In this document: one piece after another, positions 804 through 9,872 of the stretch
Layout of the letters: every line of letters starts with the position of its first letter
Position numbering within the stretch: position 1 is the first letter of the stretch
Source: a virus
Taxonomy: Duplodnaviria; Heunggongvirae; Uroviricota; Caudoviricetes
Strand: one strand, 5' to 3'
Length of the DNA stretch: 10,237 nucleotides
IMG/VR virus record: IMGVR_UViG_2778261151_000009
Span: 1-10,237 of that record
Notes under the pieces: generated by a model
Seen by the model: only the letters and a program-made list of their open reading frames with translations
Database searches by the model: none
What the model was told of the DNA's origin: nothing
Program-made: the position numbers and the translations under genes

Positions 804-878
<75 letters not shown>

Positions 879-881
879 ATA

Positions 882-957
<76 letters not shown>

Positions 958-959
958 AC

Positions 960-1036
960 TGGACCGCCACCGGGGACTCGAACCTCGCACACTCAACTTA
1001 AAGGGTTGACGCTCTTTCCTGATGAGCTAGTGGCGG
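960..1036 (-). tRNA. tRNA-like gene, Lys-type anticodon UUU but atypical anticodon loop (C at position 33)
   Basis: Reverse complement CCGCCACTAGCTCATCAGGAAAGAGCGTCAACCCTTTAAGTTGAGTGTGCGAGGTTCGAGTCCCCGGTGGCGGTCCA. Perfect 7-bp acceptor stem, 4-bp D stem, 5-bp anticodon stem (TCAAC/GTTGA), loop CCTTTAA, T-loop TTCGAGT, encoded CCA. Isotype uncertain. Confidence 0.55.
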
Positions 1037-1040
1037 TTGG

Positions 1041-1113
1041 TGGCCCTTGCTGGATTTGAACCAGCGACCTGGCGATTATGAGTCGCTCGCTCTCACCACT
1101 GAGCTAAAGGGCC
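1041..1113 (-). tRNA. tRNA with CAU anticodon; resembles tRNA-Ile2 (lysidine type) more than elongator tRNA-Met
   Basis: Reverse complement GGCCCTTTAGCTCAGTGGTGAGAGCGAGCGACTCATAATCGCCAGGTCGCTGGTTCAAATCCAGCAAGGGCCACCA; anticodon loop CUCAUAA. From memory the body resembles E. coli ileX-type tRNA. Confidence 0.75.
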
Positions 1114-1289: not shown

Positions 1290-1322
1290 GCATGAATATA
1301 TGCCTTTCAATCTACTTTTGCA
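1290..1322 (-). promoter_or_regulatory. Candidate late promoter pR' (-35 TTGCAA, ~16-17 bp spacer, -10 TATATT) overlapping the Q-like gene end
   Basis: Minus-strand reading ttgcaaaagtagattgaaaggcaTATATTcatg. Position between the Q-like gene and the terminator/tRNA/lysis block matches lambdoid late-region architecture. Confidence 0.45.
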
Positions 1323-1995
1323 ACACTTTGCTTTGAAAATGCCGTCTTTTTTTTGAACGTGTTCTCATTACAAACAATAAAGCCTCACTATCCAGTCGGT
1401 GAAAAATGTGTTTCATTGCAACCCAGTGACGAGTAAATGTTTTGGACCAGTTTTTAGTTGTCACTCCCGCCAGTAATGCCAGCTCCTGGTATTCATAACC
1501 TTCCCCACCAAAAAGTTCTGCTTTTACTGCCTGCGCCGCCAGCCAGATTAATTTTTTCAGGCGTTCCTGCGTTTTCCCTGCAATTTTTCTGGTACCGGAT
1601 TGAGCATTAAATTCATTCCACGCCCACTGTGTTATCGCGATCTGATATTCCCAACAAATACTCCCGCTGTAACACCACAACAACCAGGCTTTATGATGTT
1701 CTTCAAGAGACAGAACAGCCCGCCGCCACGATGATGTCGAAAACTCAACCGGACTGACCAGAGGAATTGACGTCCCCTTCGCCAGCGATTGCTTTCCCGG
1801 GATTGGTGGATTATCCCGCGTTATCATTTTTCCAGTCACTTCATCGCGGTACCGGATTTTTTTACGCCTGTAACGCCCTGTATCGAACATGGCATTCTCT
1901 TGCCAGGCTTCAAGCTGACCTTTTGTTGCCCCACTCAAATCAGCGGTGGCGATAATGAGCTGCTCACGCACAAACTGTAAATACTGGTTATTCAT
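1312..1995 (-). CDS. Putative late-gene antiterminator Q-like protein (227 aa from ATG at 1995; family assignment by position)
   Basis: ORF track 1312..2001 (its first codon is GTG). ATG at 1995-1993 overlaps the rusA stop as ATGA. Located immediately upstream of the pR'-like promoter, tR' hairpin, tRNAs and the S/R cassette, downstream of rusA. No motif verified by search. Confidence 0.55.
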   Translation of the reverse strand: MNNQYLQFVREQLIIATADLSGATKGQLEAWQENAMFDTGRYRRKKIRYRDEVTGKMITRDNPPIPGKQSLAKGTSIPLVSPVEFSTSSWRRAVLSLEEHHKAWLLWCYSGSICWEYQIAITQWAWNEFNAQSGTRKIAGKTQERLKKLIWLAAQAVKAELFGGEGYEYQELALLAGVTTKNWSKTFTRHWVAMKHIFHRLDSEALLFVMRTRSKKRRHFQSKVLQK

Positions 1996-2351
1996 GCGCA
2001 CCCCAGTTCTGTGATTTTTATCCCCAGCCGCCCACCAGGAACGAGCTGACCGCGCACAATATTGATTTCATCAAACTGCTCGTCGTCTATAAGTAGTCCA
2101 GCATGCGTCAGCGCATCCAGCGGTGCCTTCAGGATATTGTCCAGGTCACGACGGCGCTTATCCGGTGGCTCTGCAATAATCTTTATCGCCAGCCTTCCGG
2201 ACAGGTTTAATTTCAGTCGCTGCTGGCGAACAATTAGCGCCACATCACGGCGATAACGCTCACCGGCTTTTGATACAGTCGCCAGTAGGTGTTCACCGTT
2301 GGCGGGTAAGGCAAAACAAATTCTATGCGTTCGGTCATTTATGCTTTCCAC
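1992..2351 (-). CDS. rusA: Holliday-junction resolvase RusA; N-terminal region apparently frameshifted (possible pseudogene or sequencing error)
   Basis: ORF track protein contains PDKRRRDLDNILKAPLDALTHAGLLIDDEQ and GGRLGIKITELG, matching the RusA catalytic core. The canonical N-terminal motif (MTERIEFVLPYPPTVNTYWR) is in another frame, starting at ATG 2338-2336 right after the upstream stop. Confidence 0.8.
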   Translation of the reverse strand: MESINDRTHRICFALPANGEHLLATVSKAGERYRRDVALIVRQQRLKLNLSGRLAIKIIAEPPDKRRRDLDNILKAPLDALTHAGLLIDDEQFDEINIVRGQLVPGGRLGIKITELGCA

Positions 2352-3398: not shown

Positions 3399-3677
3399 TT
3401 ACCTCCAGATCCGTTGCTGGAACGTGCAGGACGGACGCGGTGGCCGTTCGGAATAAGGGAGCCTGACGAAGATTATCCAGTGACGATAATCGAGACTGAG
3501 GGCTTTCTTAATCTCGTATCCGTGTCTGCGGTAGCGCTGAATCAGCCATTCAGCCTGTTCTTCGGTGCAGGGGTCGTGCTGATACCAGTCAGATTTGAAT
3601 GCATGAGAACGCCGCCCGTGCCTGCTGGCAGGGGCGGCAGAGTTATCCGAATTGTAAAATTTGGTATCGTGCGCCAT
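3399..3677 (-). CDS. Small conserved prophage protein (Rem-like position), ~92 aa from internal ATG
   Basis: ORF track gives 3399..3806, but codons 1-43 are translated through the hok terminator hairpin and U-tract (3745-3776). ATG at 3677-3675 is the first start downstream of that terminator. Start and identity uncertain. Confidence 0.45.
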   Translation of the reverse strand: MAHDTKFYNSDNSAAPASRHGRRSHAFKSDWYQHDPCTEEQAEWLIQRYRRHGYEIKKALSLDYRHWIIFVRLPYSERPPRPSCTFQQRIWR

Positions 3678-3744
3678 CTGTTTTCTCTGCTGGCGCAGCA
3701 GGTGCCAGTTGTTCAGGCTGACGGATGGATTGTAAACCAGAACG

Positions 3745-3776
3745 ACCAGAAAAAACAAAACCCGCCGAAGCGGGTT
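3745..3776 (-). terminator. Intrinsic terminator ending the hok transcript
   Basis: 7-bp stem AACCCGC / GCGGGTT (3759-3776) with CGAA tetraloop, followed on the minus strand by UUUGUUUUUUCU. Not U-rich on the plus side, so unidirectional. Confidence 0.6.
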
Positions 3777-3844
3777 AAGTGCGGGTGCGTTGAGGATGCC
3801 TGACACATCAGCGGTGGCGAGGGATTTCTCCCCCGCCGGGTCTC

Positions 3845-4000
3845 TTACTCCTCAGGTTCGTAAGCTGTGAAGACAGCGACCTCCGTCTGGCCGGTTCGGA
3901 TTCGTACCTCGCAGAGGTCTTTCCTCGTTACCAGTGCCGTCACTATGACGGTTAAACAGATGACGATAAGGGCGATTAACATCGCCTTTTGCTGCTTCAT
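3845..4000 (-). CDS. hok: Hok/Gef family type I toxin (51 aa)
   Basis: MKQQKAMLIALIVICLTVIVTALVTRKDLCEVRIRTGQTEVAVFTAYEPEE is a single TM helix plus the conserved Hok periplasmic tail. ORF track extends it in frame to an upstream ATG at 4057. Flanked by promoter, terminator and 5'/3' complementary elements. Confidence 0.9.
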   Translation of the reverse strand: MKQQKAMLIALIVICLTVIVTALVTRKDLCEVRIRTGQTEVAVFTAYEPEE

Positions 4001-4176
4001 AGCCTGCTTCTCCTTGCCTTTCGGCACGTAAGAGGCTAACCTACATGTGTTCAGCATGGATTGAGCCTCAGATTAATGTTAAGCGTCTTGCAGGACGCGT
4101 AATGTTAACTGGGGCTTTTCTCTATCTGCCTTTTGGTGTTCATGCCTGAGACAGATAGCCTCAAGCACCCGCAGTC

Positions 4177-4204
4177 ATTCTACTTAACTAAGATTTCCCT
4201 GCAA
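4177..4204 (-). promoter_or_regulatory. Candidate hok promoter (-35 TTGCAG, 16-bp spacer, -10 TAGAAT)
   Basis: Minus-strand reading tTTGCAGggaaatcttagttaagTAGAATgactgcGGGTGC. Predicted start falls right at the 5' element (4158-4172) that is complementary to the 3' end of the transcript. Confidence 0.4.
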
Positions 4205-4259
4205 ACCGTTTTTGTCCGGCACAGTAAATATCCAACTAAACCAATAGCGTTCGCTGTAT

Positions 4260-4439
4260 TTACCGCCAGTATTCAATGCACATGACCGCCATGAACACCC
4301 CTAAAAAAAGGGCATTTATATGTCCAAACATTAATATCAAAACATCAATTTTTTCCATATACCTTGCTGTGAAGATGATGGGCATACATGATGCGAACAA
4401 CCAGAACGCAACAAACAAAAACTGCAATGCGTTTTTCAT
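4260..4439 (-). CDS. Small hydrophobic membrane protein, possibly a lipoprotein (59 aa from ATG with strong SD)
   Basis: ORF track 4260..4478; Met14 (ATG 4439-4437) is preceded by AGGGGGAATA. Protein MKNALQFLFVAFWLFASCMPIIFTARYMEKIDVLILMFGHINALFLGVFMAVMCIEYWR has a signal-like N-terminus ending in a lipobox-like FASC and a second hydrophobic helix. Lies in an AT-rich island. Confidence 0.5.
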   Translation of the reverse strand: MKNALQFLFVAFWLFASCMPIIFTARYMEKIDVLILMFGHINALFLGVFMAVMCIEYWR

Positions 4440-4651
4440 TATTCCCCCTACAATCAATGTGCAATAACATTTAAACACACCTCAATTTGGCCGGACATAT
4501 AAATATCTAAACCAGAAAAAATCACTTACATAGCGTTACAAACTCTTTAGTCTAAATACTCATCGTAAAACATTCCCCATACTTATCAGTCCGTTCCGCG
4601 CCAGGTAGCTTATTGCCTTATCTGGCAACCTATAATCAGGTTTCCGCTTTT

Positions 4652-5074
4652 TCAGTTGGCTGGTCGTTTAACCGACATAGTTAACCCATTAATCTGGTTG
4701 CCGGATGCTGGTGGATTTTCGCGTTTTAGTTGTTCATAAAAGTGCACAGCTTTAACCAGTTCTTCTGATGTAACCGGGACTGGTGGGGCAGTGAATAAGG
4801 CCTGAATTTCATAGTTCGGCCTGTCGTTACAATCCTCTTTTTTCGGTACATATTTCCAGTCACCAACCCACAACTCCCCCTGAGAGTCCATAACACCTTT
4901 TTTCACGTAGCGATATCGCCACGCTATCGGCTCTGCTTCCAGCGATGCCCGTGCAATTTTGAATAACTCGCCCTCTACTCGCGCCATCCCTGAATTGGGG
5001 TGGCATTTCGTAATCGCTATTTTTAATTTGGCTTCTTCGATTAATTGTTCTTTTGTTAATTCAGTCATTTTCAT
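4652..5074 (-). CDS. Hypothetical phage protein (140 aa)
   Basis: ORF track; ATG start with second Met at codon 3. Upstream has AGGAGG followed by a CCGCC-TGAAAG-GGCGG hairpin. No family recognised. Confidence 0.6.
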   Translation of the reverse strand: MKMTELTKEQLIEEAKLKIAITKCHPNSGMARVEGELFKIARASLEAEPIAWRYRYVKKGVMDSQGELWVGDWKYVPKKEDCNDRPNYEIQALFTAPPVPVTSEELVKAVHFYEQLKRENPPASGNQINGLTMSVKRPAN

Positions 5075-5912: not shown

Positions 5913-6331
5913 GCCATCACCTCCTGAAAATTACCCTGATAAAACGACAATATGCGCTGCATAACTTCGCTCTTCCGGCACTCGCGACAGATTATGTTTA
6001 GGCGACTGTCGTAGCGACGTATTTCTCCGTCAGGTAATGACCAGATAAGGTCCGGATCAACCGCAGATGGTTTCTTCAGCTTTGCCCTTGAGAGCTTTTT
6101 ACGAGCATTTTGCCAGTCCTTACGCGCCTGTTCAGACGGGAATAACCCGTAACCAGAGTTGTATACATCGCCACTGGCAACCAGCTCTCTGGCCAGAATG
6201 CTCATCAGATATCTTGTTGCCCCAGTTTTAGCTTCCAGTTGTCGTAACGTCTCGCGCCCACTCTGGCGTACGAGTTCAAGAACCTGCCCTTTAATTTTTT
6301 CCCGCTCTTCTTGTGTAAAAACTTTTGCCAC
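5909..6331 (-). CDS. Hypothetical protein (140 aa), possible winged-helix N-terminus
   Basis: ORF track; GTG start with SD AGGAGGG 4 nt upstream. No Walker A motif, so not an obvious DnaC-like loader. Confidence 0.6.
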   Translation of the reverse strand: MAKVFTQEEREKIKGQVLELVRQSGRETLRQLEAKTGATRYLMSILARELVASGDVYNSGYGLFPSEQARKDWQNARKKLSRAKLKKPSAVDPDLIWSLPDGEIRRYDSRLNIICRECRKSEVMQRILSFYQGNFQEVMA

Positions 6332-9300: not shown

Positions 9301-9411
9301 ATGCAGAAACGAGAACCCGTCATCATCGCGCCAGACTATACCGATGATGAACTTTATGAGTGGATTTTGGCGGCATCAGTTTCATTGCTGGCTGATGTCC
9401 GCCCTTTTTAA
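9301..9411 (+). CDS. YdfC-like short ORF (36 aa), uncertain; its 3' end is the DicF-like hairpin
   Basis: ATG 9301 with SD GAGGAA; own translation MQKREPVIIAPDYTDDELYEWILAASVSLLADVRPF. The coding sequence runs through the terminator hairpin, so it may be truncated or partly non-coding. Confidence 0.35.
   Translation: MQKREPVIIAPDYTDDELYEWILAASVSLLADVRPF
9357..9409 (+). ncRNA. dicF: DicF-like sRNA (processed 3' end of the ydfABC transcript) with intrinsic terminator
   Basis: GGCGGCATCAG...CTGATGTCCGCC hairpin (9369-9403) followed by TTTTT. Sequence and position after ydfC resemble E. coli DicF (from memory); 5' end not determinable here. Confidence 0.55.
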
Positions 9412-9591
9412 AGTGAATTTTGTGATGCGGTGAATGCGGCTCAGCGCACGCGGAACAGTTAAAACAGTAAGGAAAATCCCTTATTCCGGCGTTAATTATT
9501 AACTGGTTAACGTCACCTGGAGGCACCAGGCACCGCATCAACAAAGTTCACTTCGGTGATGAAAGGTAAGAGAAAATGTTGAATGTAGCTA

Positions 9592-9703
9592 TTGAAAACC
9601 AGAACGGGTGGAATTATAGTGCACCTGCACCTCATAAAACGGGTGCCGGGCGTGGAAACCCGAAATCATTCACGGCGCATAACCGCGCTCAGGCGGTTTT
9701 TTT
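9592..9703 (+). promoter_or_regulatory. Promoter-terminator unit: -35 TTGAAA (9592-9597), 17 bp, -10 TATAGT (9615-9620); terminator hairpin ACCGC-gctcag-GCGGT plus T7 (9682-9703)
   Basis: Near-consensus sigma70 elements followed about 60-75 nt later by a stem-loop and seven T. Could be a small RNA or an attenuating leader for the Rha-family gene. Confidence 0.4.
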
Positions 9704-9872
9704 ATGCGTTAAGCACAGCCACATTCGCATTATGGTGGGGCGTGCAGGGCAACCGCAAGGCTGGCCGGGTTCCGTGATGACCGGTATTTCCACCCCTGTA
9801 CGTCTCACCACCCTTATGGTCGTGGAAAACCTCGGTGGTGAGTTAATCAAATTCATCGCGGAGGCTGCCATC

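What the first reader, a model, noticed from the sequence alone, without database searches (positions are those of the whole stretch)
4060..4650. AT-rich island with a strongly translated small membrane protein next to hok
This is the lowest-GC stretch in the window. It holds one small gene (4260-4439) with an unusually strong SD (AGGGGG). The product has a signal-like N-terminus ending in FASC (lipobox-like, with F at -3, which is uncommon) and a second hydrophobic helix. Small membrane proteins at this prophage position are often toxins, superinfection-exclusion or abortive-infection factors. I recognise no family, and AT-richness suggests separate acquisition and possible H-NS silencing.
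Basis: partly seen in the sequence, partly recalled or inferred. Interest (0 to 1): 0.6.

Follow-up and report, generated by a model that had tools for sequence, protein, structure and literature searches.

The report
Unannotated prophage membrane microprotein beside hok
The AT-rich stretch holds a real 59-codon gene, missing from RefSeq annotation, for a two-helix membrane microprotein that sits just upstream of the hok/sok toxin locus in E. coli/Shigella lambdoid prophages; its function is still unknown.

Summary
The window's GC minimum is at about 4270-4590. A 59-codon ORF lies at 4260-4439 on the minus strand, with SD AGGGGG four bases before the ATG. Its product has two hydrophobic helices and a lipobox-like LFASC.

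The "island" is composite. Bases 4060-4213 are the hok leader/Sok region and the hok promoter. Only about 4218-4556 travels with the ORF.

ORF length alone is not significant (P=0.21 in shuffles). The gene is nevertheless real:
- Its codon-position composition is coding-like (T2 0.53; GC1/2/3 .33/.28/.52; P about 0.002).
- A second clade exists with the same length and a gapless alignment, at 46% amino-acid identity and dN/dS about 0.19. It lies in a prophage remnant at the ttcA site.
- Both clades keep the order DUF977 gene, ORF, hok.

Clade 1 is in 1569 and clade 2 in 1045 of 5426 complete E. coli genomes. PGAP annotated neither in any sampled record. No Pfam, PHROG, NCBIfam, PADLOC, PDB or fold match was found.

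Within-clade polymorphism is 15 nonsynonymous to 0 synonymous, which is unexplained. Toxin, exclusion or lipoprotein roles remain untested. The H-NS and separate-acquisition reading is not needed for the ORF itself. The result is a good microprotein candidate, not a surprise.

The parts
4260..4439 (-). 59-codon gene (plus stop) for a two-helix membrane microprotein. Predicted helices are 2-25 and 31-58. Conserved motifs are W13, S17-C18-x-P20-I-I22, T24, Y27, L36-MFGH-NAL44, G47-V-F49 and I55-E-x-W-R59.
   Evidence: ORF listing. Codon-position statistics against shuffles. Diverged same-length homologue P0037/P0042. dN/dS about 0.19 with a gapless alignment. AF2 helical hairpin, pLDDT 71.7. ORF intact in 223 of 233 related loci.
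4444..4449 (-). Shine-Dalgarno AGGGGG, 4 nt before the ATG. The allele AGGAGG is present in about half of relatives.
   Evidence: Sequence. Polymorphism at 4446, G 60 / A 54. The decayed copy L007 still has GGAG.
4440..4556 (-). AT-rich (GC 0.325) conserved leader that always travels with the ORF. It has no recognisable promoter and no unusual RNA fold.
   Evidence: Alignments of 33 and 41 unique haplotypes. GC by part. Promoter scans. Fold z = -0.31.
4557..4651 (-). Variable spacer and mosaic junction. At least three unrelated sequence versions occur here among relatives.
   Evidence: Dense substitutions and indels above 4556.
4214..4259 (-). Spacer between the ORF stop and the hok promoter. 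It is still recognisably homologous in the second clade. No terminator.
4177..4205 (-). hok promoter, TTTGCA-17-TAGAAT.
   Evidence: It lies immediately 5' of the Rfam-defined hok mRNA start at 4170.
3995..4170 (-). hok mRNA leader, which is the Sok antisense target (hok/sok regulatory region).
   Evidence: Rfam RF01794, 118.9 bits, E=2.9e-27. The matching stretch in phage 933W is annotated as SokW antisense RNA.
3845..4000 (-). hokD-type toxin gene (51 aa).
   Evidence: PF01848, E=3e-23. RefSeq annotates hokD at the same place in the 100%-identical locus L001.
4303..4309 (-). T7 homopolymer inside the ORF. It is the site of the recurrent +/-1 frameshift variants seen in databases.
   Evidence: Sequence. 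Variant proteins P0018-P0025 diverge exactly after NALF(L). One of 118 loci in the unbiased sample.
4276..4467 (+). Antisense shadow ORF of 63 aa (83 aa in other alleles). Some phage records annotate it as "hornerin" or hypothetical. It is probably not a gene.
   Evidence: Its length varies with the SNP at 4466. No ORF of at least 40 aa on that strand in the paralogue locus. tblastx identity is 34% against 46% for the sense frame.

Best explanation
The range 4260-4439 (minus strand) is a genuine protein-coding gene that RefSeq/PGAP omits.

Product and topology. It makes a 59-residue inner-membrane microprotein folded as a helical hairpin. Inferred topology is N-terminus and C-terminus in the cytoplasm (K2, R59), with a short periplasmic loop at residues 25-32. 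TM2 carries the conserved core LMFGHxNALxxGVF. That core contains a small-xxx-small face (G39, A43, G47) and mid-membrane polar residues (H40, N42). TM1 carries the invariant S17-C18-x-P20-I-I.

Genomic setting. The gene belongs to a two-gene cargo unit, microprotein then hok/sok. The unit sits between the replication/ea22-type genes and the Rem/DUF968/RusA/Q genes of Rac/Qin-type lambdoid prophages.

Shown here:
- It is a gene.
- It has been under long-term purifying selection.
- It is hydrophobic and predicted helical.
- Its adjacency to hok is old.
- It has no promoter or terminator of its own that I could find.

Inferred:
- It is read from phage early transcripts or from a weak promoter.
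- It inserts in the inner membrane.
- It acts through intramembrane helix-helix contacts, either self-association or binding to a host or phage membrane protein.

My best guess for the biological role is a membrane-level function in phage-host conflict, such as exclusion of other phages or control of membrane integrity. This part is weak, at about 0.3. I do not favour a housekeeping role.
For: Coding signal:
- T at codon position 2 is 0.525, GC3 minus GC1/2 is +0.21, and GRAVY is 1.20. Each has P about 0.002-0.003 against ORFs of at least 50 aa from 5000 dinucleotide shuffles. ORF plus 6/6 SD occurs in 0.16% of shuffles.

Homology:
- phmmer over 1.84 billion representatives found P0037 (59 aa, E=4.8e-10).
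- Its common allele P0042 is on at least 1000 contigs.
- The alignment is gapless with the same start and stop, and 27/59 residues are identical.
- Codon-position identity is 58/72/50%. dN is 0.44, dS about 2.3, and dN/dS about 0.19.
- Nucleotide similarity is confined to the ORF and its 3' spacer.

Synteny in clade 2:
- A lygF/DUF977-ydaW fragment lies upstream (74% identity to window 5927-6040).
- A hok 3' fragment lies about 50 nt after the ORF stop (80% identity to window 3867-3932).
- In clade 1 the hok promoter region starts 49-50 nt after the stop in 193 of 195 loci.

Intactness:
- About 110 of 118 loci picked by an upstream DNA pattern only have an intact ORF.
- 223 of 233 loci overall are intact.

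Structure:
- AF2 predicts helices 2-25 and 31-58, mean pLDDT 71.7.

SD:
- It is kept as AGGGGG or AGGAGG.
Against: - No expression evidence of any kind. There is no sigma-70 promoter at 9/12 or better upstream and no terminator.
- PGAP annotated nothing under the locus in any of the 70 sampled complete genomes.
- Within-clade polymorphism is 15 nonsynonymous to 0 synonymous. This is what relaxed constraint would give (binomial P=0.04 against neutral; Fisher P=0.009 against divergence).
- All clade-1 copies are at least 95% identical in the complete-genome set (one decayed copy, L007, is 86%), so intactness within the clade says little.
- Frameshift and mosaic-truncated variants exist, and one 86%-identical copy (L007) is decayed.
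- dS between clades is saturated, so the dN/dS value is approximate.
- Hydrophobic ORFs arise easily in AT-rich intergenic DNA, a caution also made in PMC11188072.
- The assigned role is analogy only.
Confidence: 0.6

Rival explanations
1. It is a small lipoprotein. Residues 1-17 would be an LspA-cleaved signal peptide and C18 would be lipidated. The 42-residue mature peptide would stay in the inner membrane through the second helix. It would act from the periplasmic face, as the phage exclusion lipoproteins Llp and Cor do (those roles are from memory).
For: - S17-C18 is invariant across both clades.
- All alleles fit the PROSITE PS51257 pattern, with K/R in the first 7 residues and Cys at position 18.
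- Clade 2 has the canonical VISC and also passes the stricter G+LPPv2 regex.
- The n-region and a 13-14 residue h-region have typical geometry.
Against: - The window allele has F at -3 and fails the classic [LVI][ASTVI][GAS]C pattern and G+LPPv2.
- Residues after the Cys (M/V-P-I-I-F/L-T) are strongly hydrophobic, which is atypical for mature lipoprotein N-termini.
- Residues 4-24 have full transmembrane length, and AF2 runs one continuous helix 2-25 through the site.
- The PROSITE pattern is permissive for TM helices that contain Cys.
- SignalP and LipoP were not available.
Confidence: 0.25
2. It is a membrane-damaging toxin, holin-like or type I toxin-like. It would oligomerise through the TM2 G39xxxA43xxxG47 / H40 / N42 face to depolarise or permeabilise the inner membrane, independently of or together with Hok.
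For: - Small size, two hydrophobic helices, and conserved small and polar residues mid-membrane.
- It sits beside a known membrane toxin, and the adjacency is conserved.
Against: - No match to Hok/Gef or to any toxin or holin model.
- No antisense RNA, no structured leader (z = -0.31) and no terminator-bounded sRNA nearby.
- A strong SD on an unprotected toxin gene would be hard to tolerate.
- The phage's holin is in the lysis cassette elsewhere.
- The C-terminal tail is only 4 residues, unlike holins.
Confidence: 0.15
3. It is a formerly functional gene that now drifts as passenger DNA in cryptic prophages, kept intact only because the copies are young.
For: - 15 nonsynonymous to 0 synonymous polymorphisms within clades (tests).
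- All clade-1 copies are 95-100% identical in 1569 genomes.
- Clade 2 lies in a heavily deleted remnant where intR, hok and sitD are all fragments.
- Frameshift variants occur at the T7 run.
- No promoter was found.
Against: - Clade 1 occurs in inducible, complete phages: PhiR42_1, vB_EcoS-640R1 and vB_EcoS-813R8.
- The SD is kept in both alleles.
- The amino-acid changes are conservative (A/V, I/V, M/I, H/Y, M/T).
- An excess of nonsynonymous polymorphism at very short divergence is common for genes under constraint (general knowledge).
- The ORF alone survived intact in the clade-2 remnant in all 24 sampled loci.
Confidence: 0.2

Closest known systems
Hok/Gef type I toxins (PF01848), the downstream neighbour
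   Same: A small hydrophobic membrane peptide carried by the same prophage module, on the same strand and adjacent. The adjacency is conserved in both clades.
   Different: No sequence relationship, with no Pfam hit at E<=1. It has two helices rather than one TM plus a periplasmic tail. There is no mok-like leader, no fold-back structure and no antisense RNA detected.
Small prophage-encoded inner-membrane exclusion proteins such as HK97 gp15 and T4 Imm (recalled from memory, not tested)
   Same: A short membrane protein encoded by optional phage cargo, present in some related phages and absent in others.
   Different: No homology was detected in PHROGs or BFVD. The location is the nin-like early region rather than the tail region or the T4 context. 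No exclusion phenotype is known.
Phage exclusion and lysis lipoproteins (Llp of T5, Cor of phi80/N15, Rz1/RzoD o-spanins; recalled from memory)
   Same: A short precursor with K/R, a hydrophobic stretch and a conserved (A/V/I)-S-C at position 18. It fits PS51257.
   Different: The post-Cys sequence is hydrophobic and is followed by a full TM helix. The window allele has F at -3. No HMM similarity. It is not embedded in Rz and not near tail genes.
Class II holins / pinholin S21-68 (recalled from memory)
   Same: About 60-70 aa, two TM helices, and a small-xxx-small motif in TM2.
   Different: It is not in the lysis cassette, where a class II holin is annotated separately in L001. TM1 is very hydrophobic and not SAR-like. 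There is no basic C-terminal tail, no dual start and no HMM hit.
Chromosomal E. coli membrane microproteins that modulate larger membrane proteins (MgrB, MgtS, AcrZ, CydX; recalled from memory)
   Same: Size class, membrane location, and absence from automatic annotation.
   Different: Those are mostly single-TM and core-genome. This one is prophage-borne, has two TM helices, is restricted to E. coli/Shigella, and is absent from the K-12 Rac and Qin prophages, the only K-12 regions checked.

Membership tests
Bacterial lipoprotein (SPase II substrate) | N-terminal K/R, an uncharged hydrophobic stretch, and Cys between positions 15 and 35 (PROSITE PS51257 rule) | tested here: met
   The pattern matches residues 8-18 in both clade-1 alleles and in clade 2. 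K2 or R2/K3 are present.
Bacterial lipoprotein (SPase II substrate) | Canonical lipobox [LVI][ASTVI][GAS]C | tested here: inconclusive
   Clade 2 has VISC, which meets it. The window allele FASC and the FVSC allele do not. G+LPPv2 passes only for clade 2.
Bacterial lipoprotein (SPase II substrate) | Lipobox Cys conserved among homologues | tested here: met
   S17 and C18 are invariant in 22 sequences of both clades.
Bacterial lipoprotein (SPase II substrate) | Lipid modification and globomycin-sensitive cleavage | not testable with these tools
   This needs labelling or processing experiments. SignalP and LipoP were not available.
Hok/Gef type I toxin | Match to PF01848 | tested here: not met
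   No Pfam family at E<=1 for the 59-aa protein. The neighbour matches at 3e-23.
Hok/Gef type I toxin | Cis-antisense RNA and a structured leader controlling translation | tested here: not met
   The Rfam evalue scan gives nothing over 4214-4650. No terminator-like site on either strand. Leader fold z = -0.31.
Class II holin / pinholin | Two TM helices in a protein of about 60-75 aa | tested here: met
   Hydropathy and AF2 helices 2-25 and 31-58.
Class II holin / pinholin | Encoded in the lysis cassette, next to the endolysin | tested here: not met
   In the identical locus L001 the holin, RrrD lysozyme and lysis protein lie about 3.5 kb away, beyond Q and the tRNAs.
Class II holin / pinholin | Sequence-family match (Pfam, PHROG) | tested here: not met
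   No hits.
Moron (independent cargo unit in a lambdoid phage) | Present in some phages and absent at the same place in close relatives | tested here: met
   The hok loci of the 933W-type phage and of vB_EcoS-689R5 lack the ORF. Homology stops at window 4213/4217.
Moron (independent cargo unit in a lambdoid phage) | Own promoter and terminator | tested here: not met
   No promoter at 9/12 or better upstream and no terminator between the ORF and hok. Consensus scans only, so a weak or non-sigma-70 promoter is not excluded.
Known anti-phage defence systems (PADLOC-DB v2) | HMM match to a defence protein | tested here: not met
   No family at E<=1.

The most novel reading that the evidence does not exclude
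The microprotein is a functional partner of the prophage hok/sok locus. It would be a third component that modulates Hok insertion or toxicity, or gives immunity to it. This would explain why ORF-hok adjacency, with the same spacing of about 50 nt, has outlived 54% amino-acid divergence. Prophage hok/sok would then be a three-gene membrane module.
Probability: 0.1. Interest if true: 0.65.

Novelty: new member of a known kind. Interest (0 to 1): 0.4.

Why it matters
Clade 1 is in 1569 of 5426 complete E. coli genomes (29%), including ST131 strains such as EC958. Clade 2 is in 1045 (19%). Yet RefSeq annotated nothing at the locus in the 70 genomes sampled, so the gene is invisible to pangenome, transposon and proteomic analyses.

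It is a clean, testable microprotein candidate. It has a strong SD, a diverged homologue that defines conserved residues, and a conserved partnership with a well-studied type I toxin.

If it affects Hok action, phage exclusion or membrane integrity, it would add a component to a classic system. If it does nothing, it is still an example of what annotation pipelines drop, and of a wrong-strand ORF being annotated in its place in phage records.

Tried and rejected
1. Pfam, PHROGs, NCBIfam, PADLOC, PDB sequence profile and BFVD Foldseek on the protein or its alignment: no hit.
2. A profile search with both clades, plus metagenome, viral and genome scans, to find a third clade: only the two clades, and only in E. 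coli/Shigella.
3. ORF length as evidence: rejected, P=0.21.
4. Within-clade dN/dS as evidence for selection: it gave the opposite of the expected result (15 N: 0 S), and no reading frame on either strand was enriched for synonymous changes.
5. The plus-strand ORF 4276-4467, annotated as "hornerin" in two phage records: rejected as a shadow ORF.
6. A non-coding RNA or structured leader in 4425-4660: nothing in Rfam, z = -0.31.
7. A promoter for the ORF: none at 9/12 or better. Relaxed scans gave only 8/12 matches in implausible positions.
8. K-12: Rac and Qin lack the gene, so K-12 small-protein screens cannot inform.
9. Literature: the peptide string is absent from 8 million full texts. It is also absent from the supplements of the Sakai intergenic small-gene study and of the Enterobacteriaceae microproteome study.
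10. I considered a plus-strand hairpin with a T-run at about 4625-4655 as an sRNA terminator. It is not conserved in the other upstream variants, so I dropped it.

Full report
CONTEXT. The window is part of a Rac/Qin-type lambdoid prophage of E. coli/Shigella. Its early and nin-like genes are on the minus strand. In a RefSeq locus that is 100% identical over 4060-4700, the annotated order is as follows:
- YdaS/YdaT-type regulators
- a DNA-binding/O-like protein
- DUF977 (LygF)
- DUF4406
- an ea22-like gene
- a hypothetical gene (window 4652-5074)
- 651 bases with no annotated feature between that gene and hokD, which contain the finding
- hokD
- a Rem-like gene
- DUF968
- RusA
- Q
- four tRNAs
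- the lysis cassette

THE OBSERVATION. It is correct. The lowest-GC 300-nt window of the whole sequence is 4291-4590, at 0.34. The minus strand carries an ATG ORF at 4439-4260 (59 aa), preceded by AGGGGG-AATA. The product has K2, a hydrophobic stretch ending in LFASC at residues 14-18, a short polar loop (ARYMEKID), a second hydrophobic stretch at 33-55, and the ending EYWR. GRAVY is 1.20.

The "island" is not one unit:
- 3995-4170 is the hok mRNA leader/Sok target (Rfam RF01794, 118.9 bits). Its GC is 0.49.
- 4177-4205 is the hok promoter, TTTGCA-17-TAGAAT.
- Other hok-bearing phages, such as 933W-type Stx phages and vB_EcoS-689R5, match the window only up to 4213/4217 and then continue with unrelated genes.
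- Upstream, relatives diverge into at least three unrelated versions above about 4556.

The segment that belongs to the ORF is therefore about 4218-4556. It consists of a 46-nt 3' spacer, the ORF, and a 117-nt leader that is the real AT-rich core (GC 0.325).

IS IT MORE THAN CHANCE? Length alone is not. An ATG ORF of at least 59 aa appears in 21% of dinucleotide shuffles of 4214-4650. The frame's composition, however, is that of a coding sequence for a hydrophobic protein. T occupies 52.5% of second codon positions, and GC1/GC2/GC3 are 0.33/0.28/0.52. Each of T2, GC3 minus GC1/2, and GRAVY has P about 0.002-0.003 against ORFs of at least 50 aa from 5000 shuffles. An ORF of at least 59 aa with a 6/6 SD arises in 0.16% of shuffles. 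This also shows that the ORF's low GC comes from its amino-acid composition, because the third position has the window's normal GC.

HOMOLOGUES. Word-indexed searches found only relatives at 76% identity or above in E. coli/Shigella, plus many frameshifted or mosaic-truncated versions. An exhaustive phmmer search of 1.84 billion representatives then found a second clade. P0037 and its common allele P0042 are also exactly 59 aa:

MRKILMYLCISIWIVISCVPIILTSEYLTEASIMALMFGHANALCIGVFISIIYIECWR

The two genes align without a gap from ATG to stop, and 27/59 residues are identical. Nucleotide identity is 58%, 72% and 50% at codon positions 1, 2 and 3. dN is 0.44, dS about 2.3 (saturated), and dN/dS about 0.19. 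Across 22 sequences of both clades the invariant or near-invariant residues are M1, L5, L8, W13, S17, C18, P20, I21, I22, T24, Y27, L36, F38, G39, N42, A43, L44, G47, V48, F49, I55, E56, W58 and R59. The antisense frame is less conserved (34% against 46% in tblastx) and is not open in clade 2. The plus-strand "hornerin"/hypothetical ORF annotated in three phage records is therefore a shadow ORF. No third clade was found by profile, viral, genome or metagenome scans.

SYNTENY. Clade 2 lies in an AT-rich remnant (GC 0.31-0.37) at the ttcA site, which is the Rac attachment site. The order there is ttcA, an intR fragment, the island, sitD fragments, uspF, ompN (compare K-12). Inside that remnant:
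- A fragment of lygF/DUF977-ydaW lies upstream of the ORF (74% identity to window 5927-6040).
- A 66-nt piece of the 3' half of hok lies about 50 nt after the ORF stop (80% identity to window 3867-3932).
- The 3' spacer of the ORF is still alignable by eye. The hok promoter, leader and first codons have been deleted.

In clade 1 the hok promoter region starts 49-50 nt after the ORF stop in 193 of 195 loci. One locus has an insertion between the ORF and hok, and in one locus hok was not found within 3 kb. The order DUF977, ORF, hok therefore predates the split of the two clades. No hok/sok RNA signal remains near clade 2.

DISTRIBUTION AND ANNOTATION. The 343-bp core is in 1569 of 5426 complete E. 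coli genomes, all at 95-100% identity. Most have one copy and some have up to three. Nothing was annotated under it in any of 40 evenly sampled records. Clade 2 is in 1045 genomes as a single copy, again with nothing annotated in 30 sampled records. GenBank and UniRef hold non-PGAP calls named "membrane protein" or "hypothetical protein", for example from Shigella flexneri and ATCC 25922. Some start at an upstream GTG and give 72 aa. Clade 1 is present in complete induced phages: PhiR42_1, vB_EcoS-640R1 and vB_EcoS-813R8. K-12 Rac and Qin lack the gene.

WHAT DOES NOT FIT. Within clades every polymorphism is nonsynonymous. Clade 1 has 11 N: 0 S (A16V, M28I, I31V, M37I, H40Y, A43V, L44I, V48G, V52G, M53T, Y57C). 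Clade 2 has 4 N: 0 S. Against 81% nonsynonymous sites this gives P=0.04. Against the between-clade counts (47.5 N: 24.5 S) Fisher P is 0.009. The changes are conservative, and the commonest ones form two haplotypes (I31-M37-H40 and V31-I37-Y40). I cannot tell whether this reflects relaxed constraint in cryptic prophages, slightly deleterious variants at short time depth, or diversifying selection. The T7 run at 4303-4309 is the site of recurrent frameshift variants in databases. It is rare in the unbiased sample, at 1 of 118, and many of the variants may be assembly errors.

EXPRESSION SIGNALS. The SD is strong and is kept as AGGGGG or AGGAGG. I found no sigma-70 promoter at 9/12 or better in the 210 nt upstream and no terminator between the ORF and the hok promoter. 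The leader has no unusual fold (z = -0.31). The simplest reading is transcription from the phage early operon or from a weak promoter, running on towards hok. Clade 2 has a possible extended -10 (TGaCATAAT) about 75 nt upstream. No expression data could be found.

STRUCTURE AND MECHANISM. AF2 on a 10-sequence alignment predicts two helices, 2-25 and 31-58, with mean pLDDT 71.7. Charges suggest N-in/C-in with a periplasmic loop: K2 or R2K3 at the N-terminus, R59 at the C-terminus, and a neutral-to-acidic loop. This topology is inferred. The most conserved block is in TM2, L36-MFGH-NAL-xx-GVF49. It has a small-residue face (G39, A43, G47) and polar residues H40 and N42 in mid-membrane. This is the kind of surface that mediates tight helix packing or oligomerisation (general knowledge), which is why I favour action through intramembrane contacts.

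The invariant S17-C18 preceded by hydrophobic residues fits PROSITE PS51257 in all alleles and the canonical lipobox in clade 2 (VISC). A lipoprotein precursor is therefore a live alternative. Against it are F at -3 in the window allele, the hydrophobic M/V-P-I-I-F/L after the Cys, and the full TM length of the first segment. A toxin or holin-like role is possible but has no model match, no antisense control and no lysis-cassette context. PADLOC gives nothing. Fold and PDB searches are uninformative.

VERDICT. It is a genuine small membrane-protein gene, systematically unannotated, belonging to a two-clade orphan family confined to E. coli/Shigella prophages and linked to hok since before the two clades split. 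Its function is unknown. The toxin, exclusion and lipoprotein ideas remain hypotheses, and the H-NS/foreign-island argument is not needed for the ORF itself. It is a new member of a familiar kind, prophage cargo microproteins. That makes it worth a tagging and phenotype experiment, but it is not startling.

Noticed in passing
window 9355-9815 (+): A cluster of regulatory-RNA matches: DicF-like (43.3 bits, below the gathering score of 48) at 9355-9404, STnc100-like at 9416-9545, isrK (67.7 bits) at 9627-9703, and C4 antisense RNA (76.3 bits) at 9728-9815. Together they look like a P1/P7-type c4-icd-ant immunity element next to the prophage's repressor region.
   Followed up: no
window 807-1113 (-): Four tandem tRNA genes between Q and the lysis genes (Rfam tRNA, 44-72 bits). 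In the related locus L001 they are annotated as Ile, Lys, Thr and Gly.
   Followed up: no
window 1312-2001 (-); L001 2229-2917: The Q antiterminator gene is marked "frameshifted" (pseudogene) in the RefSeq locus that is 100% identical over 4060-4700 (identity). The prophage may therefore be defective for late gene expression.
   Followed up: no
window 4303-4309: A T7/A7 homopolymer inside the small ORF. Database variants P0018-P0025 are +/-1 frameshifts exactly here. Only 1 of 118 loci in the unbiased sample has this. Sequencing error and real slippage were not resolved.
   Followed up: partly
window 4282-4393 (ORF codons 16, 31, 37, 40, 53): All 15 within-clade polymorphisms of the family are nonsynonymous and none is synonymous. 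The common clade-1 changes form two haplotypes, I31-M37-H40 and V31-I37-Y40. I have no explanation for this.
   Followed up: partly
L004 3223-3474 and L003 3221-3472 (= window about 4282-4533, + strand): Three deposited phage genomes annotate an 83-aa plus-strand ORF here, two of them as "hornerin" and one as hypothetical, instead of the minus-strand gene. This is probably a wrong-strand call.
   Followed up: yes
L207 4984-7170 (E. coli chromosome between ttcA and uspF): About 19% of complete E. coli genomes carry, at the Rac attachment site, a 2-kb AT-rich remnant made of fragments of intR, lygF/ydaW, hok and sitD. The only intact ORF in it is the 59-codon paralogue. In L213 a complete sitABCD-like operon lies beside it.
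   Followed up: partly
window 3399-3806 (-): The longest ORF here is 135 aa, but only residues 70-135 match the Rem-like phrog_1212. RefSeq annotates a 92-aa product, so the upstream extension is probably not translated.
   Followed up: no
window 4625-4655 (+): A hairpin (GGCAACCT...AGGTTTCC) followed by GCTTTTT on the plus strand, at the 3' end of the convergently oriented gene 4652-5074. It is terminator-like but below the scan's threshold, and it is not conserved in the other upstream sequence versions.
   Followed up: partly
L031 / L149 (IMGVR_UViG_2537561977_000021): One relative has an insertion of about 1.3 kb between the small ORF and the hok promoter, at about window 4246-4250. PhiR42_1 has IS/transposase genes where hok should be.
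   Followed up: no
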